From IMG/VR virus record IMGVR_UViG_2061766007_001503: a DNA stretch of 64,000 bases. One strand, given 5' to 3'. Shown one piece after another: positions 15,206-46,252 of the stretch (within the stretch, counting starts at the first letter, position 1; every line of letters begins with the position of its first letter). The position numbers and the translations under genes were made by a program. Below the pieces are notes generated by a model, which was not told the origin of the DNA, did no database searches, and was given only the letters and a program-made list of their open reading frames with translations. This DNA is from an uncultured virus (IMG/VR IMGVR_UViG_2061766007_001503). Its lineage: Duplodnaviria > Heunggongvirae > Uroviricota > Caudoviricetes.

Positions 15206-15206
15206 G

Positions 15207-15279: not shown

Positions 15280-15283
15280 ATTT

Positions 15284-15824: not shown

Positions 15825-15889
15825 ACTGGTCTGTTCCTATTCAACTCCAGCATCAAGTCACTCTAACGCTTTATTTGCCTTAGAGAACG

Positions 15890-33160: not shown

Positions 33161-33469
33161 AATCAACACCTCTTTCTTAAAATTAGTTGTTTGTTTGTTA
33201 CAAGAACATTTTAGCACTTTTTGGAACATCTGTCAAGTACTTTTTTTATTTAATTTTCAAGGAGCAAGTGGGGTTTTCTTTCTTTACCTTACATACTTAT
33301 TATATCATAAGTTTTTAAGGAAGTCAAGAAGTTTTTTTTGAAGTGGGATTTTTATTTTTTTCTTTCCCTTACCTTCAAATACATTATATCAAAATTTTTA
33401 TAAAAAATCAAGTACAAAAAAATGATCCAAACAGGTGTGATTTTTGTGCAAGATGCACAAAAGAAAAAA

Positions 33470-33640
33470 GTCAATGGTAATGTTGCACAAATTTTAGGAA
33501 AAATCTGGCAAAAAATTTGTGCAAATTTACTATTGACAAATTTCTGCGGAGGTGGTATAATGGAAAATTCGGCGCTCGCACGACTGAAAGGAGTCGCGCT
33601 CGCGCCGACAAAAGGCCCGCCCATTAGAGGGCAGGCCTAT
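33470..33640 (+). promoter_or_regulatory. Composite repeat unit A
   Basis: TTGCACAAA..TTTGTGCAA; TTGACA 33533, TATAAT 33556; hairpin 33569-33608; terminator-like stem follows. Confidence 0.8.
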
Positions 33641-33788
33641 TTTCTTCAGATGGTTGAATTTCCTCAATTTTCCAAATTTCAGTCTGTGAATAATTTTCCT
33701 CAAAACACAAGTAAGCAATTAAATCATAAATACCATTACAATGAAAATTCCTTCGGTTGCCGTCAGTAAAGTATACTCTATAATCCAT
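33624..33788 (-). CDS. Small hypothetical protein
   Basis: MDYRVYFTDGN...; RBS AAGGAG. Confidence 0.65.
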   Translation of the reverse strand: MDYRVYFTDGNRRNFHCNGIYDLIAYLCFEENYSQTEIWKIEEIQPSEENRPAL

Positions 33789-33811
33789 TTTTTCTCCTTC
33801 CTTGTGGGCGG

Positions 33812-34510
33812 TTAATCCGCCCACAGTTTAGCGTCAAAGCGCTTGCGCTTGCGATAGCAATAGGCAAGAATTTCTTTCTCAATAAGACAATCATCAAGCC
33901 CCTTGTGTTCCTCTTTGAAGGTGTTGTCTTTGCTGATGAAGCGGTAGAGGATTTCTGCGGTAAGTCTAGGTCTAGGGATTGAGTGCTTGGTCATATAGCC
34001 ATTTTCTCTGCAAAACTTTCGATAAGTGGGCATAGGTGCAATTAACTGTTTCGCCGCCTTGAGCGTGTCACAAATTTCAACGCCATAAGGAAGAAAATAG
34101 CGATATTTGGACTTTGTGAGCCAACGCTCGGTGTTGTTAAGAGAGCCATCATCAAACCGCATATTGTGGGCATACACCTGCTTGACTTCATAATCCGCAA
34201 TATCCTGTAAGAGTGCTTTGCGGATATTGTAGAAACTTGTCAAAATGCGGGTTCCCGCCTTAATATCTTCCCAATATTCAGGAATTTTCTTTGCATAGTA
34301 AGCACTTTGCATTAATTCCTTTTCATCAAGGAAAATATCTGCATTTACGAAACTTCTTGTTTCATAAATGTTTCCGTGCTTATCAGTTACTACCCACCCT
34401 AAATCATATACGAGGGAGTTTGCGGGAAGCACTCCCTTATACTCTCTATCGCAGGGCGCGGTTTCACAATCTAAAACAATCTTATAATTCCTGCGTCTGT
34501 CAATACCCAT
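33812..34510 (-). CDS. DEDDh 3'-5' exonuclease (DnaQ-like)
   Basis: VLDCETA, YAHNMRFD, EHKGLDD motifs. Confidence 0.85.
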   Translation of the reverse strand: MGIDRRRNYKIVLDCETAPCDREYKGVLPANSLVYDLGWVVTDKHGNIYETRSFVNADIFLDEKELMQSAYYAKKIPEYWEDIKAGTRILTSFYNIRKALLQDIADYEVKQVYAHNMRFDDGSLNNTERWLTKSKYRYFLPYGVEICDTLKAAKQLIAPMPTYRKFCRENGYMTKHSIPRPRLTAEILYRFISKDNTFKEEHKGLDDCLIEKEILAYCYRKRKRFDAKLWAD

Positions 34511-34609
34511 TCTCTTTCTATCCATTCCTTTCTGTTGGTGCGTCAACCTCATTGACAAGTACAGTATAACATACCCTTCAAAGTGTGTCAACCTTTTTCA
34601 CAGAAAAAA

Positions 34610-34724
34610 TTGCACAAATTTCGGGATCAAAATAATGAAAATTTTGTGCAACTTTTTGCTTGACAAATTTTGCGGGATGTAGTATAATGAAAAATTCGCG
34701 CCGTGTGCACTTCGACACGGCGCG
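34610..34724 (+). promoter_or_regulatory. Composite repeat unit B
   Basis: TTGACA 34660, TATAAT 34683; hairpin CGCGCCGTGT-GCACTTCG-ACACGGCGCG. Confidence 0.8.
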
Positions 34725-34786
34725 GCAAAAAACAGATGTTATTTTTTTGGTAAAAAGAGAGGTGGCGGGAAACCGCCACCTGTTAT

Positions 34787-34987
34787 TTATTTAAAAAGGT
34801 CATCTTCGACTTCCGCACTAGACCAACAGAAGACACCACCGCATCGAATGAATTTTGCAACTGCAAAATCGCAACCCCATTCAAAGCAATAATTGATAAG
34901 TTCTTTTGCGCTTCGTTTAGTAAGCGCGTATCTATCTCCGAGAGTGACATCATACTTACCTTTTGTTAAAATTGTTACTTTGTACAT
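34787..34987 (-). CDS. Small hypothetical protein
   Basis: MYKVTILTKGKY...; RBS AAGGAG. Confidence 0.65.
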   Translation of the reverse strand: MYKVTILTKGKYDVTLGDRYALTKRSAKELINYCFEWGCDFAVAKFIRCGGVFCWSSAEVEDDLFK

Positions 34988-34991
34988 TTTT

Positions 34992-35213
34992 TTATCTCCT
35001 TTCCATAATCCGCTTCCACACTTCGCCACAGATAGCATCGAAGATGTCCGCCCACTGCTCTTCGGTGATGATGTAGTCCTCAACAACCTCATCGGTATCG
35101 GTATCTCCGAGGACATTAGCAACCGCCTGCTCTGCTTCGCAGTCTTCGGCGAGCATTTCATCAACAACCGCCTCAATATCAATGTCAACAACAGTAGTGA
35201 TTTCAAACTTCAT
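34992..35213 (-). CDS. Small acidic hypothetical protein
   Basis: 73 aa, very acidic; RBS GAGGT. Confidence 0.7.
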   Translation of the reverse strand: MKFEITTVVDIDIEAVVDEMLAEDCEAEQAVANVLGDTDTDEVVEDYIITEEQWADIFDAICGEVWKRIMERR

Positions 35214-35330
35214 TTTATTTTACCTCTCTTTTGTAATAAAGAAATGAAAGACCTGAACCAATAATAAAACCAATGATAAACAATATTGCAATAATCATTT
35301 TTATTTCCCTCACTTTCTGAAATAAGTATA

Positions 35331-35594
35331 TCACATTCCCGCAGGTGTGTCAAGTAGTTTTCTAAACTTTTCATAAAATTCTTCATAAAGTTTCTTGATG
35401 ACCTCATACTCGATCCCGCACTCCTGGACGAAGAAACACACACCCAGGCAACGAGAAAGTGCGCAATTCACGGTATGATTAATGATGTCAAAGGACGCTC
35501 CCTTTTCACGCTCACGGGCAACCGCTCTTTCGGTGTCGCGATATTCGTGCTGATAGTAGTGTCTGATAGCGTTAAGCGTAATAACCTTATCCAT
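35331..35594 (-). CDS. Hypothetical protein
   Basis: 87 aa; RBS GAGGT. Confidence 0.7.
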   Translation of the reverse strand: MDKVITLNAIRHYYQHEYRDTERAVAREREKGASFDIINHTVNCALSRCLGVCFFVQECGIEYEVIKKLYEEFYEKFRKLLDTPAGM

Positions 35595-35675
35595 TTTGAA
35601 CCTCTCTATTGTTGTGCTATCTCTTTATTACAAGTATAGTATAAGCCTTTTTGCGGAAAATGTCAACAGGTAATA

Positions 35676-35756
35676 TTGCACAAAATGCGTGTGAAAATTT
35701 TGTTGAAATTGCCTATTGACAAAAATGCGGGTCGCGCCGAACTGCGCGCGGCCCGC
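35676..35756 (+). promoter_or_regulatory. Composite repeat unit C (-10 box absent)
   Basis: TTGACA 35716 followed directly by hairpin GCGGGTCGCGC-CGAACTGC-GCGCGGCCCGC. Confidence 0.75.
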
Positions 35757-35815
35757 CAAACAGGTGTTATTTTATTTGCCAAAAAAAACAGGTGGAATTA
35801 AATCCACCTGTTATC

Positions 35816-35974
35816 TTACTCGACGGGAATACGCTTGCGCTCCTGTCGGGTCGGGTACTTCGCACTTTTCATAGTGCGGGTTCCCGTGTTGAACCCATTG
35901 GTTCCCCGCTGGATTTTCTGCAAAGCCTTGTAGGCTTTCTTTGTCATTCCCTTGCGATTTCCGATACTAGCCAT
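35816..35974 (-). CDS. Small basic protein (52 aa, not in ORF track)
   Basis: MASIGNRKGMTKKAYKALQKIQRGTNGFNTGTRTMKSAKYPTRQERKRIPVE*; RBS GAGGG. Confidence 0.6.
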   Translation of the reverse strand: MASIGNRKGMTKKAYKALQKIQRGTNGFNTGTRTMKSAKYPTRQERKRIPVE

Positions 35975-35978
35975 TGTT

Positions 35979-36500
35979 TTATCCCTCACTTTCTAAATCA
36001 ATGATACCATTTTTTTCATAAAAAGTCAAGAGTGCTTCTTGCATATTTTCCCACATTTTCTTGACTTTCTTCGGGTGTGCTTTTGCATACGCTACAGCCC
36101 AGGCGGTTGCCATAATCTCGTCAGGCAGGTTGAAATACTGCCATTCAAGAGCCTTTGAGCGGTCTGCGTCTGCGGTTTCCATTTCACGCTCAATGCGCTC
36201 TTTTTCTGCGATACAGAAATCATATACTTCGCCGTCAACATCATCATTTGCCTTGTGGTGTCCGACTTCGTGAAGCAAAGACATCACAAAAGGAAATCTG
36301 ACATCATAATCAAAACGCTCTTTGATGAATTCGATGAACCACTTGTCCTCAATGCCATTCTCCGTCAGTTTGAAAGTGACGGTAGCGTCATCAAAGAAGT
36401 ATGCATAAGCGGTGTCCACCTTTGCGCCCTTGATACCAAACGGCGCAAGTTCCTTGCCGATAGCCTTGTTCAGTTTTGCCTTGCCCTTAACCTTTGCCAT
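35979..36500 (-). CDS. HExxH zincin-like metallopeptidase, paralog family 3
   Basis: SLLHEVGHH...QYFNLPDEIMATAWA. Confidence 0.7.
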   Translation of the reverse strand: MAKVKGKAKLNKAIGKELAPFGIKGAKVDTAYAYFFDDATVTFKLTENGIEDKWFIEFIKERFDYDVRFPFVMSLLHEVGHHKANDDVDGEVYDFCIAEKERIEREMETADADRSKALEWQYFNLPDEIMATAWAVAYAKAHPKKVKKMWENMQEALLTFYEKNGIIDLESEG

Positions 36501-36562
36501 TGTCTGTCCCTCACTTTCTGTACTTATTATAGCGCACCCAAACAGATTTTGCAAGTAGCAAA

Positions 36563-36678
36563 TTGCACAAAATTTTGGGATCATTTTTGTGCAATTTTTT
36601 TTCAAAAAATGCTTGACAAAAATCTGGCGGTATGGTATAATAGAAAAATTCGGCGCGTGTTGAACTGCACACGCGCCG
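36563..36678 (+). promoter_or_regulatory. Composite repeat unit D
   Basis: TTGACA 36613, TATAAT 36636; hairpin CGGCGCGTGT-TGAACTGC-ACACGCGCCG. Confidence 0.8.
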
Positions 36679-36754
36679 CCAAACGCATGTTATTAAAACA
36701 TTTGTTATTTTTTGAATAAAAAATAACGGGCAGGATCATTCCCGCCCGTGGTGT

Positions 36755-36925
36755 CTATTTGACCTTGACACCTGCGACAACACCCGAAGGGAGATAGACA
36801 TTCTCCCCGATGACAGCGAAGCCGAAAACCTCGCCCCAATTGCGGAAGACATAGTCTTCACGCCACTTCCGCACGAACTCCTTGCGGGTGCGGGGACACA
36901 TTGCATAAAACTTCTGTTTGGTCAT
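36755..36925 (-). CDS. Small hypothetical protein (56 aa, not in ORF track)
   Basis: MTKQKFYAMCPRTRKEFVRKW...; RBS AAGGAG. Confidence 0.6.
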   Translation of the reverse strand: MTKQKFYAMCPRTRKEFVRKWREDYVFRNWGEVFGFAVIGENVYLPSGVVAGVKVK

Positions 36926-36939
36926 AGTCTTGTTCTCCT

Positions 36940-37287
36940 TTACTTTGCGTTGCGGTGTTTGATAAGTTTCAGTGAATACGAAGTGCCATTGTAGGTAAAA
37001 TGCACATCGGTTTCGTTCTGCAAGGTAATGTCAGAAGCGTTTTCGAGGTCGGCAAGCATTTCCGCGCACTCCTCAAGAATAAACTTCTTTTCGTTGTCAA
37101 CCTTGCGCTCCCTAGGCTTCTTTACTTTTCTTTCGGGGCTAGCCTGGGTGTAGTTCTTGATTTCCTCTGCTCCCATCTCCATCTTTGCCATCTCAAGGGC
37201 TTCCGCTTCAGTCACGGGTTCGCCATCTGCTTTGGCTTCAAGAAAAATCTGGCGGGCAAGGTCTTCGATAGTCTTTGCTTTTGCCAT
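36940..37287 (-). CDS. Hypothetical protein, paralog family 2
   Basis: MAKAKTIEDLARQIF...DGEPVTEAEALEMAKME. Confidence 0.75.
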   Translation of the reverse strand: MAKAKTIEDLARQIFLEAKADGEPVTEAEALEMAKMEMGAEEIKNYTQASPERKVKKPRERKVDNEKKFILEECAEMLADLENASDITLQNETDVHFTYNGTSYSLKLIKHRNAK

Positions 37288-37437
37288 TCTGTATCCCTCA
37301 CTTTCTAGATACATTGTAGCACTTTTTGGGGTGCTTGTCAACAGTTACTTTTAAGAAATTTTCGGGGTGTAGAGCATTTCCTCATTTCTTATATATAAAT
37401 TATAGCAAAAATTTTTAAAAAAATCAAGTAGGCAATT

Positions 37438-37551
37438 TTAACAAATTTTGGGATCTTACCACCTAAAAATTTGTGCAACTTGCCTATTGACAAAAATGCG
37501 GGGATGTGATATAATGGAAATTTCGCGCCGCGGCGGTTCATCAGCGGCGCG
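37438..37551 (+). promoter_or_regulatory. Composite repeat unit E
   Basis: TTGACA 37487, TATAAT 37510; hairpin CGCGCCGC-GGCGGTTCATCA-GCGGCGCG. Confidence 0.8.
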
Positions 37552-37632
37552 NNNNNNNNNNNNNNNNNNNNNNNNNNNNNNNNNNNNNNNNNNNNNNNNN
37601 NNNNNNNNNNNNNNNNNNNNNNNNNNNNNNNN

Positions 37633-37968
37633 GGACACCCGCTTCTCAACGGTCTTGACCACAGTCCCCGCATCAACCATCTGCTTGAGCAGTGCAGTGA
37701 CCTTCTGGGTCGTCATACCCTCGAAACGGTCATCGGACTTGATAACCTCGGAAACGGTCATCTTCTTGCCATCGGCAAGCACCTCGGCAACCGCCACCTT
37801 CAGACCCTCGTTCTCGGTCTGCACCTTCGTAGGCTTGCGGTTAGCGGACTTCTTGTCGAGCAGGGCAATTCTAGCCTCTGCCATCTCGATCAGGTCGGGT
37901 CTGCCTGCGACCTCGAACACCTTAATAGCCTCGTTAAAGAAATCTCTCTGCGTCATCTTGTTTGCCAT
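37633..37968 (-). CDS. Paralog family 1 protein (3' end in N-gap)
   Basis: MANKMTQRDFFNE...LDKKSANRKPTKVQ...TTQKVTALL...VEKRVS. Confidence 0.75.
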
Positions 37969-38364
37969 AATCAACACCTCTTTCTTTTGTTAGGTTTTAG
38001 GGGTCATCCCCTTTGTTACAAGAACATTGTAGCACATCTTTATTCAGTTGTCAAGGAATTTTTGAAGTTTTTTTCCGAGACTTCAAACTCACGGAATTGA
38101 CTGTCACAGGTTTTCTCTTAATGCCCGCGCGGTAGTTCTAACATCATAGGAGTTTTCCTTGCGCTCTTTCAAGTCGCTTCCTTTATCTTATGTACTTATT
38201 ATATCAGAAGTTTGGTGGAAAGTCAAGCGCTTTTTTTATTTTTTATTGCCCGAACCGTTGTTCCTACGGCAAGGCGGGGAGAGCCGTTCTGCCCACTCTT
38301 TTATCTTTCCCTTAACTTCTATAAAGATTATATCAAAAATTATTTAAAAAATCAAGTTGGCATT

Positions 38365-38489
38365 TTGCACAAAATTTTGGGAAAAATGATCTAGATCTTT
38401 GTGCATTTTTTCTCTTGACAAAAGTGTGCGAAATGTGGTATAATGGAATTTCGGCGCGCGGCGTGGCACTTCATACGTTCGCGCGCCGA
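38365..38489 (+). promoter_or_regulatory. Composite repeat unit F
   Basis: TTGACA 38415, TATAAT 38439; hairpin 38451-38489 with loop GCACTTCA. Confidence 0.8.
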
Positions 38490-38527
38490 CAAATAAAAAA
38501 GGCGCCCCGTAGGGCGCCAAAGAGAGG

Positions 38528-38692
38528 TCATCTGAGGCGGATTCGCCTAGCTTCCTGAAGCGGGAGCAGGGGCGCCGACTTGTCAACGATAACATCTTCA
38601 AAGTCAACCGTGTACTTCTGTCCAGAGGCTTTAGCCTCGTTCATCGTGCGAACTACAGTGCCATCAGCAAGAACATAGATAAGATTTCTCAT
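38528..38692 (-). CDS. Small hypothetical protein (54 aa, not in ORF track)
   Basis: MRNLIYVLADGTVVRTMNEAKASGQKY...; RBS GAGGT. Confidence 0.65.
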   Translation of the reverse strand: MRNLIYVLADGTVVRTMNEAKASGQKYTVDFEDVIVDKSAPLLPLQEARRIRLR

Positions 38693-38774
38693 TTTTTTTA
38701 CCTCTCATTGAAAGTGTGTTTAAGGGGTTTTCCCTTTGTTTCTAAAATCATTATAACATTATTTTTTTTAATTG

Positions 38775-39017
38775 TCAACCCCTTTTCGCAAAAAAGTTGA
38801 AAAGGATTAAGCCGAGCGTGATTGCAAAGCAAGCGCAATCTTTAACCTTGTCCGCCATGGGACGCTTGAGGACGAAACAACGAATTGCAGAAATGGTATT
38901 GCACCCGAGATAGATACCCTGCCCGAGATAAAAATTCTCACCCACTACGCATTGTGCCACGATAAGCCCGATAAGCACTACAAACTGAAGATTTTCAAAA
39001 AACTTTTTCATACTCAT
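38775..39017 (-). CDS. Small membrane protein
   Basis: Three hydrophobic segments; RBS GAGGT. Confidence 0.7.
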   Translation of the reverse strand: MSMKKFFENLQFVVLIGLIVAQCVVGENFYLGQGIYLGCNTISAIRCFVLKRPMADKVKDCACFAITLGLILFNFFAKRG

Positions 39018-39082
39018 TACCTCTCTTTCTCTCTCTTGACAATAACAGTATAACACATTATGGGATAAATGCAATGTACAAA

Positions 39083-39163
39083 TTGCACAAAATTTGAATT
39101 GCATTTTTGTGCAAGATCACTATTGACAAAAAATACGCGGCGTGTGGGTTCATACACGCCGCG
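39083..39163 (+). promoter_or_regulatory. Composite repeat unit G (-10 box absent)
   Basis: TTGACA 39123; hairpin CGCGGCGTGT-GGGTTCAT-ACACGCCGCG. Confidence 0.75.
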
Positions 39164-39215
39164 CTCAAAAAAAGAGGTGCGGAGAGTTTCCGCACCTTTT
39201 AATCTTGGCTCTTTG

Positions 39216-39671
39216 TTATGCGAGGGAATAAAGACTATCTCTCACCTCGATTTCCTTCGCTACTGTTACTACCTTGGGTCCAGAGTAATCATAATCTCTA
39301 ACAGTAATCTTGTAAGGGTCTGAGTATCTCTGCTTCAAAAAGCCGCCTGCACAAAGTCTACGGCAAGTCGCGGTAGTTCTCTGCACCGTCCAACGGATAC
39401 CATTTTCTTTAAGATATTTTACAATATCCTTAATCTTACATTCTCCCTCTAACTTCTCAAAAAATTCCATAATCACGGAGATATCCTTGCCAAGCCGAAC
39501 CATTTCCATAAAATTGCTAGAAGAAACCGAGCTATCCAATGAAGCATCGATCACATGGATGCTTCCGCTATAATTGCGATAATTGCGCCAGTAAAATGCA
39601 TATCTATCACACATTACCGCAAGTCCAATCATTTCAAGGTTCTCTTTTGTCATAAAATCTCTAACTTCCAT
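39216..39671 (-). CDS. Hypothetical protein, possible winged helix
   Basis: CKIKDIVKYL...TVQRTTATCRRLCAGGFL. Confidence 0.65.
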   Translation of the reverse strand: MEVRDFMTKENLEMIGLAVMCDRYAFYWRNYRNYSGSIHVIDASLDSSVSSSNFMEMVRLGKDISVIMEFFEKLEGECKIKDIVKYLKENGIRWTVQRTTATCRRLCAGGFLKQRYSDPYKITVRDYDYSGPKVVTVAKEIEVRDSLYSLA

Positions 39672-39722
39672 TTTTATTTACCTCGCTTTCTATAACTACT
39701 TTATCATATAAAGGCTTTTTTG

Positions 39723-40163
39723 TCAAGCCCCTTTTTTAAATTTTTTAATTTGTTTTGTGGTCAGAAGGGTTGCACCGTCAAATTTGATTTGCACTTCTCT
39801 TCCGTTGATATTAATATCACCCTGCACCCAAAAAGGAATTGTATCTTTTTCCCAGGTCTGCCCATAATATTCGGTGACAAGTTTCTCGAAAATTTCACCC
39901 TTATTATACTTATCATCAACCAACTGGCACTCCGAACCTAAGCACACAGGATTTTTTTTCATAAGTTGCGCCTTATAGGCTTTCTTGACGCGGAGGCGGA
40001 GATTGTCGCCCTGATTGCGGCTTGCTTCCTCTGCGGAAAGATATCTAGGCATGATCTCTGCAACATTTACCATATAAATATTTTTATCATAGGTAAAGCC
40101 TAAAATATAACTATCCGCCGCCGACTTATCTCTATACCATTTCATCATCGTTTTCTTTGTCAT
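39723..40163 (-). CDS. Hypothetical protein, possible PD-(D/E)XK-like nuclease
   Basis: NKGEIFE...GDINING...QIKF. Confidence 0.5.
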   Translation of the reverse strand: MTKKTMMKWYRDKSAADSYILGFTYDKNIYMVNVAEIMPRYLSAEEASRNQGDNLRLRVKKAYKAQLMKKNPVCLGSECQLVDDKYNKGEIFEKLVTEYYGQTWEKDTIPFWVQGDININGREVQIKFDGATLLTTKQIKKFKKGA

Positions 40164-40238
40164 TTGTTAAGTACCTCTCTTTCCCTTACCTTGTAAATAC
40201 ATTATACTCCCCGGCAGGTAAAAATGCAATAGGGCAAA

Positions 40239-40364
40239 TTGCACAAAATTTTGGGATAAAATTTGTGCATTTTGCCGATTAAAAAGTGCTTGACAAAATG
40301 CTGAAGGTGTGGTATAATATAAAATTCGGCGCGCACCGGCTTTAGCCATTCGGGTGCGCGCCGA
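40239..40364 (+). promoter_or_regulatory. Composite repeat unit H
   Basis: TTGACA 40290, TATAAT 40313; hairpin 40326-40364 with loop containing GCCATTCG. Confidence 0.8.
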
Positions 40365-40380
40365 CATAAAGAGAGGGCGG

Positions 40381-40836
40381 TCAAGCGACCGCCCGAAGTG
40401 CTTCGATGATGTTGTGGGTGGCGTCCACGGTGGCGCCCAAGTCCCAAGCGTTGCGGTTCTGCTCCTCATCGTCCACGAGGACGCCCGCACCGTAGGCTCT
40501 GCAAGTGTCGGCTTTCCGTACTCCGTAGGGCGTGACGATGATTTCATCGAGTAAGTCGCTAAGGCAACGCTCCCAAAGCCACTCACGCTTTACCTTTGCG
40601 ACAGCCTTGTCATACTCTGCGTTGTTCTCCTTGCTACCCCACGAAATGATACCGAGGTTATAGCCCTTCATTTTGAGTTCTGCGAAAAGCATCAAGAGGT
40701 CGATTTCTGCGTAGAGAGGACGAGCCTTTGCGTAAGGGCGAGTGTTGTGTGCGAGTAAATCATCAAGCCAACCTTCCACGCCATACAGGTCTGCGATAGT
40801 GCCGTCCATGTCGAACCAAATCCACTTGTTATCCAT
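40381..40836 (-). CDS. HAD-family phosphatase (5'-nucleotidase-like)
   Basis: WFDMDGTIAD motif I; IISW; K; LVDD motif IV. Confidence 0.8.
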   Translation of the reverse strand: MDNKWIWFDMDGTIADLYGVEGWLDDLLAHNTRPYAKARPLYAEIDLLMLFAELKMKGYNLGIISWGSKENNAEYDKAVAKVKREWLWERCLSDLLDEIIVTPYGVRKADTCRAYGAGVLVDDEEQNRNAWDLGATVDATHNIIEALRAVA

Positions 40837-40900
40837 AGCCCTTACTCCTTTCTGACAATAACAGTATAGCACCGCCTACAATAGAAGTCAACTAGTAATA

Positions 40901-41016
40901 TTGCACAAATTTTGGGATCCACCGGACTGAATTTTTGTATATTTTGCCTATTGACAAATTTTTCGGCAGGGTGTATAATGGAAAATACGCGTCGCAGTGA
41001 ACCATTTGCGACGCGT
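40901..41016 (+). promoter_or_regulatory. Composite repeat unit I
   Basis: TTGACA 40951, TATAAT 40974; hairpin ACGCGTCGCA-GTGAACCATT-TGCGACGCGT. Confidence 0.8.
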
Positions 41017-41047
41017 CAATAAAAAAATCCTCGGAGCCGGGGGGATC

Positions 41048-41251
41048 CTACCTCTCAAAGAGGTAGGGAGCCAGTTTGGCTCTGACCACGGCGAGGTCAC
41101 CCTTGGACAACTCACAGCCGTTGTCGGGGTCGAAAGCCTCAACCGTGAAGATGTCTTCGTTGACATCTCTGGTGAGGACGAGCCAGCCCCGCAGGACGCA
41201 GTTCTCAATGACTGCGGGAGACACCTTTGCGTAATCACACACGAATTCCAT
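41048..41251 (-). CDS. Small hypothetical protein
   Basis: MEFVCDYAKV...; RBS GAGGT. Confidence 0.65.
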   Translation of the reverse strand: MEFVCDYAKVSPAVIENCVLRGWLVLTRDVNEDIFTVEAFDPDNGCELSKGDLAVVRAKLAPYLFER

Positions 41252-41503
41252 ATTTCTTACCTCTCTTTCTGAAGCCATTATATTATTTTTATTTTGGAGT
41301 GTCAAGAACTTTTTTTGAGGTAGTTTCCGTCGGGTGGTCAGGCTTTCAAGTACCAGTTTCGGCTTTGTCAAGTCAATTCCGCTACCCTATTCACTCTGTC
41401 AGTGCCAACTATCTCTTCGAGAGTATCCGCTACCTCATTTCCCTCTCTGTGATTATAGTATACTGCTAGCCTTCCCTACTGTCAAGAGAAAGTGTAAAAA
41501 ATA

Positions 41504-41618
41504 TTGCACAAATTTTGGGATCCTTTGAAGTGAAAATTTGTGCAAATTGTCTATTGACAAAATGGCCGAGAATGTGATATAATGAAAATTCGCGGCGCAT
41601 CGAACCATTTGCGCCGCG
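41504..41618 (+). promoter_or_regulatory. Composite repeat unit J
   Basis: TTGACA 41554, TATAAT 41578; hairpin CGCGGCGCA-TCGAACCATT-TGCGCCGCG. Confidence 0.8.
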
Positions 41619-41639
41619 CCCAAAAGACGCGGCAAATGG

Positions 41640-41940
41640 TTTTTACTCTCTTTCGCGCCTGTTCTCTGGCACAGGATTAAGCCATTCCCCCGACCGTGCT
41701 CGCTAGGTCAACATCGGCAATCAGTGGCTCGTTAGGTGAGCCCGCCCATACGCCAACATCTTTTAGGCAGTCGTGGCGTTGACTCCGCGGGATTCACTGG
41801 GTGTATGTATTCTGCGCTCGGACTACCTACACGCGCCTGCGTGTGTGTCTGCTCGTCAGCGCCTACCCTGTCGGCTCCGCCCGTTCCGAATGGAAGTTTC
41901 TCGCTCCCTCAAAGGGGTTCTGTCCTTTGCCCCTCGGACA
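41640..41940 (-). ncRNA. Candidate GC-rich ncRNA of about 300 nt occupying a whole cassette
   Basis: No RBS-led ORF; minus-strand promoter TTGCAA-17-TATTCT at about 41946-41974 in the position where other cassettes start a gene. Confidence 0.45.
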
Positions 41941-41983
41941 AGTATAGAATACCACACCCTCTGATGTATTGCAAGTAGTAATG

Positions 41984-42172
41984 TTGCACAAAAATTTCGG
42001 GATAATTGGATCAAAATTTGTGCAAAATTTCTCTTGACAAAAAATCTGCGGGTATGATATAATGGTAAAATACGCCGCTCGCATGATTCGTGCTCGCGGC
42101 GCCCAGAGGATTTGTCAATAGTAAAAATGCACAAAAATCATTAAAAATTTTTGTGCATTTTACCTATTGCAA
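41984..42172 (+). promoter_or_regulatory. Composite repeat unit K with a second TGCACAAA palindrome after the hairpin
   Basis: TTGACA 42034, TATAAT 42058; hairpin 42073-42101 with loop TGATTCG; palindrome 42113-42172. Confidence 0.8.
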
Positions 42173-42562
42173 TTTTTGAATTGCCCGTACCAAATCAAGG
42201 TGCTCATTGCAAAAATCAATCGCCCAATCAGTCGCCGCAAATTCCTCGTCAAGATAGAAGTACTGTTCAAGCGTAAGGGCGTTTTTGAATTCGGGGTCGA
42301 AACAATCATCATCAAATTCGTCGATAGTTTCACAATGCCCCAGCTCGTGGAAGAACGAAATAGTGAAAGCGTCCACAATCTTATTTAGACCATTTTCTCT
42401 TGCAAGGGCAAGAAATGCTAAATCCATCTCGCTAGGTTCGGCGATTTCCGCAACCTCGATCTTGCTTTCAAAGTGATAGTAGTTGAAAGAGTCGCCCAAA
42501 GTAACAGAGCAATCAAATTCTTTTGCAATTTTATTCAGAAGTTTGAGAAGTGCCTTTTTCAT
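42164..42562 (-). CDS. HExxH zincin-like metallopeptidase, paralog family 3
   Basis: SFFHELGHC...QYFYLDEEFAATDWA. Confidence 0.7.
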   Translation of the reverse strand: MKKALLKLLNKIAKEFDCSVTLGDSFNYYHFESKIEVAEIAEPSEMDLAFLALARENGLNKIVDAFTISFFHELGHCETIDEFDDDCFDPEFKNALTLEQYFYLDEEFAATDWAIDFCNEHLDLVRAIQKLQ

Positions 42563-42609
42563 TTTTTCTCTCCTGTTTGGTCTGTTATTTTGGGGGTGTC
42601 CCCCTTCCC

Positions 42610-42711
42610 CTAGTCGAGGAAGAGGTCCACGAAAGCCTTGTAGGCTTCCCACGCCACCGCAAGGGTGTTCTCCCTGCGGAGCGCTCTCCAGTAAGCATAA
42701 TCTCTAACCAT
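42610..42711 (-). CDS. Micro-protein (33 aa)
   Basis: MVRDYAYWRALRRENTLAVAWEAYKAFVDLFLD*; RBS GAGGTG. Confidence 0.55.
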   Translation of the reverse strand: MVRDYAYWRALRRENTLAVAWEAYKAFVDLFLD

Positions 42712-42762
42712 GGTAATCACCTCTCTTTCTATTACTTATTATAGTATTGAAATTTTATTTTG

Positions 42763-42960
42763 TCAATACTTTTTTTCCTTAATTGTTACAATAATTCTAC
42801 GGATAATTGCAACAGGTAAAAGAATTATCCAAAGAAGATTTGCAATTAAATCTTCCAGATCACAAAGGTAGCAATCGCAGGCAATACTAACGAAATTCAT
42901 TATGTGAGCAATAATAAAATAAGAAAGAGCAATGAGGAGGATAATTTCAAGAGTAGTCAT
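42763..42960 (-). CDS. Small membrane protein
   Basis: Two hydrophobic helices. Confidence 0.7.
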   Translation of the reverse strand: MTTLEIILLIALSYFIIAHIMNFVSIACDCYLCDLEDLIANLLWIILLPVAIIRRIIVTIKEKKY

Positions 42961-43029
42961 TTTATTTATTTCCTTTCTTTAACTTTAAATAGAGTATACC
43001 ATTATTTATTAGATTTTACAATAGTAAAT

Positions 43030-43145
43030 TTGCACAAATTTTGGGATCCCCAGGTTAAAATTTTTGTGCAAATTGCCTATTGACAAAATGTGGCGGAAAT
43101 GGTATAATGAAAATTTCGGCGCGCGTGGGTCGTGCGCGCGGCGCC
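43030..43145 (+). promoter_or_regulatory. Composite repeat unit L
   Basis: TTGACA 43080, TATAAT 43103; hairpin with loop TGGGTCG. Confidence 0.8.
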
Positions 43146-43162
43146 AATAAAAAAGGCTAGGC

Positions 43163-43447
43163 TTAAAGCCTAGCCATAGCCCTCTCAAGGACATCCTCAA
43201 GAGTGTCATCCTCGAACTCCTCGTCCCAGTCCTCATCAGGCTCCTCGCCGAAGATAGAGGACTGGCAAGCGGGACACATCCCAGAGATGAGGGCTTCCCG
43301 CTCGGTGGCGTTCAGGTACGGAAACACATTCTGTACCAGATACTCGCCAGTAACAAAGCGGTTGTAATCCGCTTCCCGCACGAGTACAGAGTGCATTTTT
43401 CCGCAGATAGGGCAGACAATAGTAAGTTCAAGATTTCTATTCATCAT
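43163..43447 (-). CDS. Zinc-ribbon protein with acidic tail
   Basis: CPICG...VQNVFPYLNATEREALISGMCPACQ. Confidence 0.75.
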   Translation of the reverse strand: MMNRNLELTIVCPICGKMHSVLVREADYNRFVTGEYLVQNVFPYLNATEREALISGMCPACQSSIFGEEPDEDWDEEFEDDTLEDVLERAMARL

Positions 43448-43509
43448 AGTGGTTTACCTCTCTTTCTGAAACCATTGTATCATTTCCTATTGTGGATGTC
43501 AAGCACTTT

Positions 43510-43701
43510 TTAAAAAATTTGTGCTTCTTTTGCACTAAGATAGAAACCGTTCTCAGTAATGAGTGCACCACCCATAATTTTCGCAAAGCTTGCACCGAGG
43601 CGGATTGCGCGACCCTCGTTGAAACGGAACGCGATAGTGTGTCCATTATTGATGACTTTGTAACCGTGCTTGGTGTTAAGGATGATGATGTTCTTGCTCA
43701 T
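43510..43701 (-). CDS. Small hypothetical protein
   Basis: MSKNIIILNTKHGY...; RBS GAGGT. Confidence 0.65.
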   Translation of the reverse strand: MSKNIIILNTKHGYKVINNGHTIAFRFNEGRAIRLGASFAKIMGGALITENGFYLSAKEAQIF

Positions 43702-43787
43702 AGTGTTTACCTCTCTGTTGTGCTTTGCTTTCCTTACCTTGTAAACATAGTATAGCACCTAACTGAAATAAATGCAATAGGTAATAA

Positions 43788-43899
43788 TGCACAAATTTTA
43801 GGATCATTTAAAGAGATTTTTTGTGCAATTTGCCTATTGACAAAATACTGAAACCTATGATATAATGAAAATACGCGCGCGAGAGGACCATTCGCGCGC
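43788..43899 (+). promoter_or_regulatory. Composite repeat unit M
   Basis: TTGACA 43837, TATAAT 43861; hairpin GCGCGCGA-GAGGACCAT-TCGCGCGC. Confidence 0.8.
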
Positions 43900-43964
43900 C
43901 ACCGCAAGTCGTTATTTTTACATTTGCGCAAAAGAAAAAACTGCGCTTTCCGCAGTTTTCTCTC

Positions 43965-44159
43965 TTACTCCTCGAAGTCATCCATCTCTGCAGTGTAGTA
44001 CTGGTCAAGGCTGTGGTAGCCAGTCCGCACATACACAACCGCGTTAAGTACCTGTTCCCAAGAGCCTTCCATCAGATTGCGTGCCAGATTCAACTCGTCA
44101 GCGGTTGCGATTCCAAGTTCTACAATCTGGTCATAATCCATCATTTCCTTCTGTGTCAT
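43965..44159 (-). CDS. Small acidic hypothetical protein
   Basis: 64 aa; ELGIATADEL...VRTGYHSLDQ. Confidence 0.7.
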   Translation of the reverse strand: MTQKEMMDYDQIVELGIATADELNLARNLMEGSWEQVLNAVVYVRTGYHSLDQYYTAEMDDFEE

Positions 44160-44229
44160 AGTGTTTGCCTCTCTTGTTTTTGCTATTGTTCTTTTGATGA
44201 TTTTATTCTATCATCTTTTGTTGAATGTG

Positions 44230-44484
44230 TCAAGCATTTTTTTTCTGTGCTTTGACTAACCGATTTGCTTCTGCATAAGTCGTATTCTCGTTGATACCTT
44301 CTCTTTCGTATCTCTCAAAGCCCCAACCAAGATTGAGCAATCTTGCATCTTTGCGAACGATTGCGATGACATCGCCTGCATACTCATTGATCGATCCTTC
44401 TCTAGTCAATCTCTCTTCTACGAAGATGACTTCCTCATTATCATTCATTCCTGCGATTGCCTTTTTGATTTCTGCTACGGTCAT
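44230..44484 (-). CDS. Small hypothetical protein
   Basis: MTVAEIKKAIAGMNDNEEV; RBS GAGGT. Confidence 0.7.
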   Translation of the reverse strand: MTVAEIKKAIAGMNDNEEVIFVEERLTREGSINEYAGDVIAIVRKDARLLNLGWGFERYEREGINENTTYAEANRLVKAQKKNA

Positions 44485-44581
44485 TTTATTTACCTCTCTT
44501 TTTGTTTTTGTTCTGTCCCCTTGTTTCTGAATTAATAATACACCCAAAAGAAAAAAGTGTCAACACTTTTTAAAGAAAAAG

Positions 44582-44736
44582 TTGCACAAAATACACAGAT
44601 CTTTTTTGTGCATTTTGTACACATTTTAGGACTTTTTGCTCTGCATCTTTGTGCATTTTGCCTATTGACAAAAGTTGAAAGATGTGGTATAATGGAAGAA
44701 CGGCGCTTGACGTGATGTGACACCCGCCTGCGCGCC
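44582..44736 (+). promoter_or_regulatory. Composite repeat unit N (last copy, weak hairpin)
   Basis: TTGACA 44665, TATAAT 44688; GGCGC...GCGCC. Confidence 0.7.
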
Positions 44737-45072
44737 TAGCAAATTATTCCAATCTAATTATAGTTATTTGATTTTCAATCATTTTGTTCTGTTGTTTATC
44801 TTATCTTATTTATTTACTTTTGATACGCTTGTTATTTATTTATTGTCTTTTTCTTTTATTTTGTGGCGGGGTCTGTTTTTAGAGAGGGTTGNNNNNNNNN
44901 NNNNNNNNNNNNNNNACTTTTTTCCGGGGGGAGTATTTTCGGGAAAATTTAAAATTAAGATTGTAAAACGTTTTTTCCTCCACAACTCCCGCACCAAAAA
45001 TTTTTCTCATTTCGAACAACACCAAAAAATTCTTAGACAAACAAAAACACGAAGTATTTTTGTTTAGTCCCT

Positions 45073-45100
45073 TGACTTTAGCCAAAATTTTTGGTATAAT
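45073..45100 (+). promoter_or_regulatory. Sigma-A-type promoter upstream of the morphogenesis region
   Basis: TTGACT-17-TATAAT with extended -10 TG. Confidence 0.7.
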
Positions 45101-45167
45101 TAGTTTAAAGATGAATCTTACAGGTTCATCTTTAACTTAGATAATACTACACAGGAGAAATAAATAA

Positions 45168-46252
45168 ATGGACGACTATATTAAAATGGACTATTCACTC
45201 ACTTCCGCAGAAGAAAGAGTGAAAAAAGTAGAAGAAATANNNNNNNNNNNNNNNNNNNNNNNNNNNNNNNNNNNNNNNTTATATTTAAACAAATTAGCAG
45301 AATACATTGTAGACCCCGTAACAAAAGAAGAAAAGAAACAAAAAAATATTTTAACTAAAAATCAAATGGTAACAGTCAATAGAAGAGAGTTATCTCTCGA
45401 AGGTTTGGTATCCAAACTAGAGAATGGCGAAGATGGCATCTACAACATGATAGCCAACGACAAGAATATTCTCTTTCAACCTAAAACTCCCATAACAGAA
45501 GAGGAAATAGAATCAATTCCCCCTCTTAAAAAACTTGTTGAAGAAATAAAAAAAGTTGAAGCAATTGCGGCGACCGCTCGGGGAGCTCGAGCCTACGCCN
45601 NNNNNNNNNNNNNNNNNNNNNNNNNNATAAAGACCAGTATGTTATTAGAGCGGCATACCGCCCTACTATTTATAGTACGCATCTCCTTAAAACCGCTTCC
45701 CGCCTCGATTTATCAGAGCGGATAACCATTGATAAAAAGACAGGTAAAGTATCAAGCAATGGCCTTATTAACTTTTTCAATGAGGAGCACGTCTCCGCAC
45801 TTCTTTGCAATTACTCTAAAATAAAAGAAGATTGCTGGGACTGTTTCAACAGTGATATGAAATGGATGATGGAAGACTTTGATGCTCTTGTTGATGCGGC
45901 GCTCAAAGACAAATATCCAATTTATTATGATATTGTTATTTATAAAATAGATGGCAAACAAAATGCGGAAATTCAGGAATTATTATATGAAACTTATGGT
46001 ATAAAACACTCTGTTGAATATATCTCTTCCCTTTGGCGGAATAAGATTCCAAAATTAATAGTTCAACAAGCAGAAAATGATTATCTTATATGGTACTATA
46101 CTAATGTCGAATATGGTCNNNNNNNNNNNNNNNNNNNNNNNNNNAAGTTAGCCCATAATAATTTCTTTTCAAAAAATAGTACAAGCAAAGATGGTTACTA
46201 TAGTATATGTAAAGAATGCCGAAATGCAAAGACTAAACAAAAGAAAGAATAA
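45168..46252 (+). CDS. Hypothetical regulator with HTH-like region and C-terminal zinc finger (joined across N-gaps)
   Basis: ORFs 45168.. and 45857..46252; KIDGKQNAEIQELL...SVEYISSLW; SKDGYYSICKEC. Confidence 0.55.

What the first reader, a model, noticed from the sequence alone, without database searches (positions are those of the whole stretch)
33470..44736. Array of 14 palindrome + antisense promoter + GC-hairpin elements dividing 11 kb into gene cassettes
Seen: 14 units (near 33480, 34610, 35676, 36563, 37440, 38365, 39083, 40239, 40901, 41504, 41984, 43030, 43788, 44582) share one order: TTGCACAAA-(often TTTTGGGATC)-TTTGTGCAA inverted repeat, then CTATTGACAAA, usually 17-18 nt then TGnTATAAT-GGAAAAT, then a CGCG-rich hairpin of about 25-40 nt, an A-tract, and often a second terminator hairpin. 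These promoters face the plus strand, opposite to every cargo gene, and point only at the hairpin. The cargo genes have their own minus-strand promoters on the other side of the palindrome. Stem sequences differ between copies but keep pairing. Established: PeSL promoter-stem-loop cassettes shuffle early genes in T4-type phages, but those face their genes. Inference: an undescribed system, either a dispersed family of short hairpin sRNAs co-regulated with early genes through a shared operator, or recombination/cassette-boundary sites.
Basis: partly seen in the sequence, partly recalled or inferred. Interest (0 to 1): 0.9.

Follow-up and report, generated by a model that had tools for sequence, protein, structure and literature searches.

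The report
Backward promoter-hairpin joints between phage cassettes
An uncultured cattle-rumen phage separates its small early genes with 14 copies of a two-way promoter unit whose stronger promoter points away from the genes and straight into a GC-rich hairpin, a conserved design related to known phage promoter/stem-loop cassettes but with an unexplained backward promoter.

Summary
All 14 units are at the stated places, and 22 of 22 exact half-sites in the window lie in the array.

Each unit is a divergent promoter pair. A TTTGTGCAA box sits 8-9 or 18-19 nt upstream of each -35, so the "palindrome" is two upstream boxes. The boxes are 14 or 24-25 bp apart, in steps of one helical turn.

The gene-facing promoters are sub-consensus. 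The 12 intact backward promoters are all perfect and end 6-9 nt before a GC hairpin. Two units have lost the -10 but keep the hairpin.

The hairpin lies just beyond the upstream cassette's own terminator. It covaries strongly, is about 96% Watson-Crick and shows no G-U strand bias.

The design recurs in 61 IMG/VR contigs. A model finds 54 of 54 full units on the capsid-gene strand in six genomes.

Relatives differ by cassette order, and one lacks exactly one cassette between two units.

Best reading: a PeSL-like cassette joint, a new variant. The backward promoter probably acts in cis on the upstream cassette's 3' end. No RNA data exist, so this role is inferred and a trans-acting hairpin RNA is not excluded.

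The parts
33383..33640 (.). Unit U1. Minus promoter 33411-33383. Boxes 33483-33491 and 33516-33524 (24 bp apart), with an extra box pair at 33443/33453. Plus promoter 33533-33561. Hairpin 33569-33608. Upstream cassette's terminator about 33613-33640.
   Evidence: (dG -25.1, 0 of 200 shuffles); model hit 58.8 bits
34563..34790 (.). Unit U2. Minus promoter 34591-34563. Boxes 34610 and 34643. Plus promoter 34660-34688. Hairpin 34696-34725. Terminator 34760-34781, terminator-like on both strands.
   Evidence: 66.1 bits
35638..35815 (.). Unit U3, a variant without the -10. Minus promoter 35666-35638. Left box 35676; right half degenerate. -35 at 35716-35721 abuts hairpin 35727-35756. Terminator 35787-35812.
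   Evidence: partial model hit 26.7 bits
36526..36752 (.). Unit U4. Minus promoter 36554-36526. Boxes 36563 and 36586 (14 bp apart; 18 nt to the -35). Plus promoter 36613-36641. Hairpin 36651-36678. Terminator 36726-36749.
   Evidence: 66.9 bits
37399..37633 (.). Unit U5. Minus promoter 37427-37399. Right box 37470; left half degenerate. Plus promoter 37487-37515. Hairpin 37524-37551, which runs into masked N at 37552-37632.
   Evidence: 63.8 bits
38327..38520 (.). Unit U6. Minus promoter 38355-38327. Boxes 38365 and 38398. Plus promoter 38415-38444. Hairpin 38451-38489. Terminator 38501-38518.
   Evidence: 69.6 bits
39040..39200 (.). Unit U7, a variant without the -10. Boxes 39083 and 39106. 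-35 at 39123-39128. Hairpin 39136-39163, followed on the minus strand by a T-run. Terminator 39175-39197.
   Evidence: partial model hit 28.3 bits
40195..40396 (.). Unit U8. Boxes 40239 and 40262 (18 nt to the -35). Plus promoter 40290-40318. Hairpin 40326-40364. Terminator 40375-40394.
   Evidence: 69.2 bits
40863..41075 (.). Unit U9. Minus promoter 40891-40863. Left box 40901; right half degenerate. Plus promoter 40951-40979. Hairpin 40987-41016.
   Evidence: 60.4 bits
41457..41640 (.). Unit U10. Minus promoter 41485-41457. Boxes 41504 and 41537. Plus promoter 41554-41583. Hairpin 41592-41617, whose 3' arm can also pair with the next segment.
   Evidence: 69.4 bits
41945..42166 (.). Unit U11. 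Boxes 41984 and 42017. Plus promoter 42034-42063. Hairpin 42073-42101. Beyond the hairpin lie a mirrored -35 without a -10 and a second box pair at 42127/42150.
   Evidence: 51.8 bits
42993..43176 (.). Unit U12. Minus promoter 43021-42993. Boxes 43030 and 43063. Plus promoter 43080-43108. Hairpin 43118-43145. Terminator 43155-43175.
   Evidence: 78.8 bits
43745..43965 (.). Unit U13. Boxes 43787 and 43820. Plus promoter 43837-43866. Hairpin 43875-43899. Terminator about 43937-43960.
   Evidence: (18 of 200 shuffles as stable); 58.0 bits
44535..44740 (.). Unit U14, the last unit. Minus promoter 44563-44535. Boxes 44582, 44605 and 44648. Plus promoter 44665-44693. No convincing hairpin at 44702-44736. 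It faces the 0.4-kb non-coding gap and the plus-strand structural genes.
   Evidence: (z = +1.3); 44.1 bits; conserved in G001

Best explanation
The 14 units are composite regulatory joints between self-contained early-gene cassettes of a large rumen phage. The phage is about 142 kb, judged from a complete relative.

Shown from sequence:
- Each joint is a divergent pair of host sigma-70/sigma-A-type promoters.
- Each promoter has a TTTGTGCAA box one or two helical turns upstream of its -35. This fits one DNA-binding regulator acting on every joint.
- The weaker promoter drives the next cassette of small genes of unknown function.
- The perfect-consensus promoter points the other way, and its -10 ends 6-9 nt before a perfect GC hairpin.
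- That hairpin lies directly behind the U-tract of the upstream cassette's own terminator. On the gene strand it is followed by a short U-rich stretch supplied by the backward promoter's start region and -10, or by the -35 in the variants that have lost the -10.

Inferred:
- The hairpin is a second barrier to read-through from the upstream cassette.
- The backward promoter acts in cis on that cassette's 3' end. RNA polymerase bound or firing head-on blocks read-through, and the transcript starts flush with a stabilising 5' hairpin and is antisense to the 3' end of the upstream mRNA.
- Each cassette is thereby insulated and answers only to its own box-controlled promoter.
- Because the joints are alike, they also serve as recombination sites at which cassettes are lost, gained and reordered.
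For: Anatomy and its non-random nature.

Promoter asymmetry: the 12 intact backward promoters score 12 of 12. Of the 14 gene-facing unit promoters, 10 were picked up by the scan, at 9-11 of 12, and none reaches 12.

Helical phasing: box-box spacing is 14 (13 cases) or 24-25 (27 cases), and nothing else with 0-45 allowed. Box-to-(-35) spacing is mostly 8-9 (57) or 18-19 (16).

Hairpin:
- 86.6% of cells are paired against 61.7 +/- 1.6 in shuffles (0 of 500), and 10 of 10 pairs covary.
- In 68 unique stems, 676 of 702 pairs are Watson-Crick. G-U counts are 10 on the promoter strand and 8 on the other. This is as expected if both strands are transcribed.

Terminator placement: the first terminator has a U-tract on the gene strand in 32 of 36 cases. 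Three window GC hairpins, at three units, pass a terminator scan on the gene strand.

Loss of the backward promoter: 14 of 68 units have lost the -10 by a precise deletion yet keep the hairpin, now with a better U-run.

Conservation:
- The pattern occurs at 77 loci in 61 IMG/VR contigs.
- It is confined to one region of at most about 12 kb in each of five relatives, with 0 control matches.
- 54 of 54 full model hits lie on one strand per genome, the capsid-gene strand. Cargo genes are on the opposite strand in the four genomes inspected.

Cassette behaviour:
- Cassette order differs between the window and G001, and two cassettes are absent there.
- X5 record 11 joins 39096 to 40368 with 75 other letters, which removes one two-gene cassette between U7 and U8.
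- Cargo is small genes of unknown function.
Against: - No transcript data were examined, so neither the backward RNA nor termination at the GC hairpin is shown.
- On the gene strand the tail after the hairpin in units with an intact promoter starts with A's and has only about 4 U. Only three of the 13 window hairpins pass the terminator scan.
- In relatives (G002 at L090 4233-4426; L029, L036, L069, L063, L013, L038) and at U11 in the window, a second promoter or -35 in the gene direction abuts the other side of the same hairpin at 4-7 nt. Insulation does not explain this; a purpose-made hairpin RNA would.
- Block ends against G001 are not enriched at units: 9 of 20, P = 0.18.
- The hairpin sets were selected for having a stem. 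The relatives' loci were found with a pattern that required the box and TTGACAAA, so conservation of those letters outside the window is partly by ascertainment.
- Palindromes can change both arms in one template-switch event, so covariation does not prove selection on RNA.
Confidence: 0.5

Rival explanations
1. The promoter-hairpin modules are genes for abundant, stable small hairpin RNAs. These would carry a 5'-triphosphate and a GC stem of 10-16 bp and act in trans. Examples are decoys or sponges for a host RNA-binding nuclease or an RNA-sensing defence, or regulators of early mRNAs. The hairpin is the product rather than a barrier.
For: - The promoters are perfect consensus and the stem starts 6-9 nt after the -10, so the RNA would begin flush with the stem.
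- The same tight spacing (4-7 nt) is seen for second promoters converging on the same hairpin in relatives.
- Stems are near-perfect Watson-Crick on both strands.
- The design is conserved down to 48% capsid-protein identity.
- Several loops share a short motif (seen by eye).
Against: - Stem sequences are not conserved, even between orthologous units whose flanks are about 85% identical. Any partner would have to read shape only.
- Only 10 of 36 second hairpins offer a U-rich 3' end on this strand.
- 14 of 68 units have lost the promoter but kept the hairpin.
- No Rfam family matches.
Confidence: 0.2
2. The backward promoters are the start points of rightward transcription toward the structural genes. 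Their 5' hairpins would act as stabilisers or as sites where a phage factor controls elongation. Long transcripts would run antisense through the early array, silencing it by collision and duplex formation, and on toward the packaging and head genes.
For: - 54 of 54 full units are on the capsid-gene strand in six genomes and lie upstream of it.
- Most first terminators are one-directional and would not stop plus-strand transcripts: 26 of 36 lack a tail with at least 5 T.
- The last unit, U14, has no hairpin and faces the structural block.
Against: - The promoters are host-consensus and would fire from the start of infection, against the early genes.
- The first plus-strand gene has its own promoter at 45072.
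- In G003 the capsid gene is about 52 kb from the array.
- No antiterminator or recognisable regulator was found among the cargo.
- Co-orientation with late genes is equally described as early genes pointing away from them.
Confidence: 0.13
3. The element works at the DNA level. The perfect palindromes, with promoters firing into them, would be recombination or replication-initiation sites (cruciform or R-loop) that drive cassette shuffling. The RNAs would be by-products.
For: - There is no G-U bias and stems are near-perfect Watson-Crick.
- A loop inversion separates an orthologous pair, window 34660 unit versus L019.
- Stem tops turn over rapidly.
- Cassettes are reordered and lost at or near units.
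Against: - Rearrangement junctions also lie at box-less promoters, and there is no enrichment at units.
- A DNA-level role does not explain why -35, spacer length, TG and -10 are all kept perfect.
- Convergent transcription puts positive, not negative, supercoils on the palindrome (established twin-domain model; recalled).
Confidence: 0.1
4. The backward promoter has no function of its own. The unit would be a symmetric promoter cassette spread by duplication, with the unused side capped by a hairpin.
For: - The same box-plus-promoter drives ordinary genes in other relatives (L005, L023, L026, L034, L044+, L045, L065, L066).
- Two window units, and 14 of 68 overall, do without the -10.
Against: - The unused side is better conserved than the used side: 12 of 12 consensus in all 12 intact window units while their spacers differ.
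- The orientation rule holds in 54 of 54 units in six genomes.
Confidence: 0.07

Closest known systems
PeSLs (promoter-early stem-loops) of T4-type phages RB49/phi1, PST and nt-1. Sources: PMC2839356 (passages and section 14 read); PMC4122927 (abstract read).
   Same: - A strong sigma-70-type early promoter with an A/T-rich upstream region, joined to a stable stem-loop thought to stop upstream transcription.
- Many copies between small genes of unknown function in a plastic region.
- Copies coincide with gain, loss and reordering of cassettes between relatives.
- One PeSL subclass also has the stem-loop just downstream of the -10.
   Different: - Here the promoter welded to the stem-loop faces away from the cargo and has no ribosome site or gene behind it. 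A separate, weaker promoter drives the cargo.
- Two phased upstream boxes are present.
- A separate canonical terminator precedes the stem-loop.
- The phage is unrelated to T4: the nearest capsid proteins are in Phass-1 and roughly 140-kb Enterococcus phages.
- Mini-circles and terminator activity, shown for PeSLs, are untested here.
Cis-antisense and convergent-promoter control (all recalled, not read here): lambda oop RNA against the cII 3' end; countertranscripts of pT181/pIP501; convergent PQ/PX of pCF10.
   Same: A short transcript from a strong constitutive promoter runs convergently into the 3' end or leader of a neighbouring transcript. It combines polymerase collision with RNA pairing.
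   Different: Those are single loci with defined terminators and conserved RNA sequence. Here there are 12 copies per genome with variable stems, mostly no terminator of their own, and no experimental evidence.
phi29 p4-controlled divergent early/late promoters (recalled, not read here)
   Same: Divergent host-type promoters with phased binding sites for one regulator between them, in a phage of Gram-positive (Firmicutes) bacteria.
   Different: phi29 has one such region, and both of its promoters drive genes. Here the unit is repeated 14 times, one side drives only a hairpin, and the binding protein is unknown.
Backward-promoter/hairpin units noted earlier in this scan in other uncultured phages (e1-6045080, e1-6071751; AI notes, unchecked)
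   Same: A textbook host-type promoter pointing against the genes and fused to a hairpin that belongs to the genes' mRNA end.
   Different: Those are other genomes with fewer copies (four in e1-6045080), or with mostly weak mirror-image promoters (e1-6071751). The notes shown do not mention box pairs. No sequence likeness to this window was found.

Membership tests
PeSL (promoter-early stem-loop) cassettes | [quoted passage not shown] | tested here: met
   55 promoter-like sites against 22.0 +/- 5.3 in shuffles. There are 12 perfect plus-strand promoters, and 10 of the 14 units' minus-strand promoters are picked up at 9-11 of 12. The upstream sequence is A/T-rich around the boxes.
PeSL (promoter-early stem-loop) cassettes | Stable stem-loop within or beside the promoter, placed to stop transcription from upstream | tested here: inconclusive
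   A stable hairpin is present in 13 of 14 units, just after the upstream cassette's terminator. Termination activity cannot be tested here, and only three window hairpins pass the U-tail rule.
PeSL (promoter-early stem-loop) cassettes | The composite promoter faces the downstream gene, with a Shine-Dalgarno site and start codon at its 3' end (PMC2839356, fig. 2 legend) | tested here: not met
   The promoter fused to the stem-loop is on the strand opposite to all cargo and has no ribosome site or ORF behind it. In G005 the same dichotomy holds.
PeSL (promoter-early stem-loop) cassettes | Located in a plastic region among small genes of unknown function | tested here: met
   Of 23 cargo ORFs, 0 reach a Pfam cut-off and 4 match a PHROG. 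Gene content and order differ from G001.
PeSL (promoter-early stem-loop) cassettes | Insertions, deletions and replacements between close relatives have their ends in the repeats | tested here: inconclusive
   One clean case exists: X5 record 11 skips 39097-40367 between U7 and U8. Overall, 9 of 20 block ends against G001 lie within 30 nt of a unit, with 33% expected and P = 0.18.
PeSL (promoter-early stem-loop) cassettes | Excised cassette mini-circles; occurrence in T4-type myoviruses | not testable with these tools
   Mini-circles need inverse PCR. The lineage is not T4-like: capsid protein is 46% identical to Phage Phass-1 and 34% to Enterococcus phages.
Canonical intrinsic terminator (for the GC hairpin on the gene strand) | GC-rich stem, short loop, and a U-tract directly after the stem | tested here: inconclusive
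   Stem and loop are met (median 10 bp and 7 nt). The tail on the gene strand averages AAUUUUCC (flank table). The scan accepts the hairpins at 39164, 36678 and 34724, two with an intact backward promoter and one of the variants without a -10.
Any described RNA family (Rfam 15) | Match at the gathering score | tested here: not met
   Only 14 tRNA hits in the window. Nothing in 33300-45200 comes near a gathering score at E up to 1.
RNA anti-CRISPR / solitary CRISPR-repeat mimic (recalled concept) | Copies share the sequence of a host CRISPR repeat | tested here: not met
   Stem sequences differ between copies. Cross-pairing of arms from different units gives 40.7% Watson-Crick against 96.7% for true partners. 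No host repeat was compared.

The most novel reading that the evidence does not exclude
The promoter-hairpin modules are dedicated factories for very abundant, 5'-triphosphate, perfectly paired GC-hairpin RNAs, made from one or both strands in the first minutes of infection. The RNAs would be recognised by shape, not sequence. They would act in trans, for example to saturate a host double-strand-RNA nuclease or an RNA-sensing defence. Their position at cassette joints would be secondary.
Probability: 0.15. Interest if true: 0.85.

Novelty: new variant of a known kind. Interest (0 to 1): 0.6.

Why it matters
Host-takeover regions of large phages are built from small genes of unknown function, and the rules of their expression and shuffling are known for very few phages, all cultured.

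This finding adds a clear rule conserved across a clade of uncultured rumen phages. Every cassette joint carries a two-way, box-controlled promoter, and its perfect side fires backward into a hairpin.

If the backward promoter insulates cassettes, it is a compact natural design for stopping read-through with a head-on promoter. That would be useful for synthetic operon design. It would also explain how dozens of strong promoters can sit in tandem.

If the hairpin RNAs act in trans, this would be a new class of phage small RNA.

The phased boxes point to a single regulator, from host or phage, that could switch the whole early programme at once. The same repeat at the same 14-bp spacing in Clostridia genomes hints at the host group.

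All of this can be tested on a 250-bp synthetic fragment.

Tried and rejected
Searches that found nothing:
- RNA evidence: no RNA holder was listed for 37700-44800. The 18 runs are DNA or of unknown kind, so expression could not be examined.
- Megablast of the array against 50,697 phage records: no match.
- No whole genome is held for the window.
- Rfam: nothing for the units or for five bacterial loci.
- Phage Phass-1, the nearest named relative by capsid protein, has 0 promoter-plus-GC-run matches.
- Earlier notes of this scan: none by place or by sequence.

Tests that did not discriminate:
- G-U versus A-C strand test: 10 versus 8.
- Enrichment of homology-block ends at units: not significant.
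- The many short-sided joints (21-35 letters), table 5, were not used. They probably come from unit-to-unit matches of other phages. The depth figures of that call were not used either.

Side questions:
- The cargo-less cassette at 41630-41960 is not unusually structured (z = -1.32, 11 of 100 shuffles) and gains no convincing ORF under code 15.
- Bacterial copies of the box pair: the neighbouring genes in 5 genomes have nothing in common, so the binding protein could not be named.

Ideas rejected by reasoning:
- CRISPR-repeat mimic: rejected because stems differ between copies.
- lambda-N/put-type antitermination site: set aside because the promoters face no genes and the stems are not conserved.
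- N4-type hairpin promoters and single-strand origins: set aside because the promoter is ordinary duplex consensus.

Corrected slip: one search failed on a wrong coordinate and was corrected.

Full report
**What is there**

The region 33.4-44.7 kb holds 14 repeated joints between short runs of minus-strand genes. The half-site TTGCACAAA occurs 61 times in the window at up to one mismatch, against 30.8 +/- 5.1 in shuffles. All 22 exact copies lie in the array.

Twelve joints carry a plus-strand TTGACA-17/18-TATAAT promoter, and all 12 score 12 of 12. The other two, at 35716 and 39123, lack the -10, and their TTGACAAAA runs directly into the hairpin.

The -10 ends 6-9 nt before a GC hairpin of 25-40 nt. 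Against 200 shuffles, 8 units have none as stable, 4 have 5-10, U13 has 18, and U14 is not a hairpin.

To the right of the array come a 0.4-kb non-coding gap and then plus-strand terminase, portal, capsid-like and tape-measure genes. The window also holds 15 tRNA genes. It is a large tailed phage. DNA holders of the stretch are bovine gut metagenomes.

**Anatomy re-read**

Read on the gene strand, each joint runs in this order:
- stop codon of the upstream gene;
- a canonical terminator with a U-run;
- the GC hairpin;
- a short U-rich stretch, which is the complement of the backward promoter's start region and -10;
- the complement of the -35;
- box, 14 or 24 bp, box;
- 8 or 18 nt, then a sub-consensus promoter;
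- ribosome site and the next gene.

The "palindrome" is therefore two upstream boxes, one for each of two divergent promoters. In the window and five relatives' arrays, box-box spacing is 14 (13 cases) or 24-25 (27 cases), with nothing else when 0-45 is allowed. Box-to-(-35) spacing clusters at 8-9 (57) and 18-19 (16). Steps of one helical turn argue for a protein bound on one face of the DNA.

The promoters are asymmetric. The backward ones are perfect. Of the 14 gene-facing unit promoters, 10 are listed by the scan, at 9-11 of 12, and none is perfect.

**The hairpin**

I collected 68 unique stems that directly follow a box-associated promoter or -35.
- 676 of 702 pairs are Watson-Crick. There are 10 G-U pairs on the promoter strand, 8 that would be G-U on the other strand, and 8 other mismatches. 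There is no strand bias.
- True arm partners pair at 96.7%. Arms swapped between units pair at 40.7% (maximum 50.7% in 500 trials).
- On a 52-sequence alignment, 86.6% of cells pair against 61.7 +/- 1.6 in shuffles (0 of 500). All 10 pairs show double changes, and slid registers give 26-59%.

These sets were chosen for having a stem, so the figures show covariation, not frequency.

Orthologous joints of the window and G001 have flanks about 85% identical but quite different stem tops. One pair differs by an inverted loop. Such changes can arise by template switching in palindromes.

**Flanking terminator**

The first terminator has at least 5 A in the 8 nt before its core on the promoter strand, which is a U-tract on the gene strand, in 32 of 36 distinct cases. 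It has at least 5 T after the core in only 10 of 36, and at least 4 T in 20 of 36. Most backward transcripts therefore have no obvious terminator.

On the gene strand, three of the window's GC hairpins pass a terminator scan.

**Spread**

The full pattern (box, box, TTGACAAA) is found at 77 loci in 61 IMG/VR contigs by my count of the table. Many of these contigs are 120-180 kb long.
- In most, the promoter is followed by a GC hairpin.
- In some (L005, L023, L026, L034, L044+, L045, L065, L066) it drives an ordinary gene.

In five relatives the box-promoter pattern is confined to one region of at most about 12 kb, with no control matches.

A covariance model built from the alignment finds 54 full hits at 36.9 bits or more:
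- window, 12;
- G001, 10;
- G002, 7;
- G003, 9;
- G004, 9;
- G005, 7.

All hits in each genome lie on one strand, which is the strand of the capsid-like gene. Many of these hits were in the training set.

In the window, G001, G002 and G005 I checked that the cargo genes lie on the other strand. G005 shares only 48% capsid-protein identity with the window, so the design is old.

**Cassette behaviour**

G001 is a complete 141,935-bp contig. Shared genes are 82-92% identical.
- It has the same joints but a different cassette order: the window's c4-c5-c6 against c5-c6-c4 in G001.
- The two genes of c4 are swapped.
- Two window cassettes are missing, and one extra cassette is present.

Only 9 of 20 block ends lie within 30 nt of a joint, with 33% expected (P = 0.18). 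By eye, most of the others lie at box-less gene promoters.

A cleaner case comes from another sample. X5 record 11 is 1,347 nt long. It matches 38591-39096 and 40368-40825 with 75 other letters between. This removes the two-gene cassette between U7 and U8 and leaves one joint.

**Points that do not fit a pure insulator**

In G002 the same hairpin is flanked by two converging box-promoters (L090 4233-4426). In L029, L036, L069, L063 and L013 a gene-direction promoter sits between the first terminator and the hairpin, with its -10 only 4-7 nt from the stem. L038, and U11 in the window, have the form without a -10. A promoter placed flush against the hairpin thus seems to be selected from either side. 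This keeps the hairpin-RNA reading alive.

**The box in bacteria**

A scan of one genome per species found 122 matches to the inverted repeat with 13-25 bp between the halves. Of these, 47 have exactly 14 bp, against 2-14 at each other spacing.

Of the 28 matches at 14 bp whose record titles were shown, 26 come from Clostridia-type records and 2 from one Paludibacteraceae locus.

In 3 of 47 the repeat lies 4-10 nt before a TTGAC[AT] hexamer. In three of five inspected genomes that promoter precedes a small conserved ORF. The neighbouring genes are otherwise unrelated. Some MAG contigs may be mis-binned phage (L191 looks phage-like). This is a weak pointer to Clostridia hosts and to a host-type DNA-binding protein.

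**Comparison with what is known**

PeSLs of T4-type phages are the closest known kind: strong sigma-70 promoter, A/T-rich upstream region, stem-loop terminator, flanking genes of unknown function, and mediation of shuffling. Sources are PMC2839356 (passages and section 14) and PMC4122927 (abstract). A PeSL ends in the ribosome site and start codon of the next gene, and that feature is not met by the hairpin-fused promoter here.

Four full-text searches found no description of backward promoter-hairpin joints. Supplements were not consulted.

Earlier AI notes of this scan report similar backward promoter-hairpin units in two other uncultured phages. They are leads only and were not checked here.

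The parallels to lambda oop, plasmid countertranscripts, pCF10 and phi29 p4 are recalled, not read.

**Verdict**

This is a real, conserved, non-random element. It is best filed as a new variant of promoter/stem-loop cassette joints. It has a phased operator pair and a so far unexplained, strongly conserved backward promoter whose mechanism needs RNA data.

Noticed in passing
window 41306-41458 (minus strand); L089 3274-3424 (minus); L090 4457-4600 and 6167-6312 (plus): A conserved non-coding transcript of about 125-150 nt follows a joint's gene-facing promoter in the window, in G001 and twice in G002. It has a closing helix with a compensatory change and ends in an A-run. It is a candidate small RNA carried as cargo.
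   Followed up: partly
window 41630-41960 (minus strand): The cassette between U10 and U11 has a promoter but no ORF under table 11 or 15. It is GC-rich and absent from G001-G005, though part of it appears in another sample's contig (X5 record 12). Its fold is not unusual (z = -1.32).
   Followed up: partly
window 11089-16923 (minus strand): A cluster of 15 tRNA genes. One, at 12731-12804, ARAGORN reads with a four-base anticodon and no assigned amino acid; Rfam scores it at 39 bits.
   Followed up: no
G003:C1:68694-69695 and G005:C1:108237-109274: The capsid-like genes of two relatives each contain one in-frame TAG. The nearest named phage, Phass-1, is filed in a 'code 15' clade. Some relatives may therefore read TAG as a residue in late genes. 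The window's own copy has no stop.
   Followed up: no
Bacterial loci from L095 upward, for example L216 2489-2520, L217 2501-2532, L218 2035-2066: The same inverted repeat at exactly 14 bp spacing is over-represented in Clostridia genomes (47 of 122 matches). In three genomes it precedes a consensus promoter and a conserved ORF of about 43 codons. This could be the operator of an unidentified regulator.
   Followed up: partly
window 38040-38340 (minus strand): About 300 nt with two or three consensus minus-strand promoters (38226, 38172, 38054) but no convincing ORF. This may be further non-coding cargo.
   Followed up: no
window 44740-45170: An A/T-rich non-coding gap with short T-rich repeats lies between the last joint and the first plus-strand gene. 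It is partly masked (44892-44915). It is the divergence point of the early and structural genes, and may lie near the packaging site or genome end.
   Followed up: no
L090 2800-9000 (G002) and L092 3000-16500 (G005): In the relatives' arrays almost every small gene has its own TTGACA-17-TGnTATAAT promoter. G005 has about 38 on the gene strand in 13 kb. This is an unusually high density of consensus promoters.
   Followed up: partly
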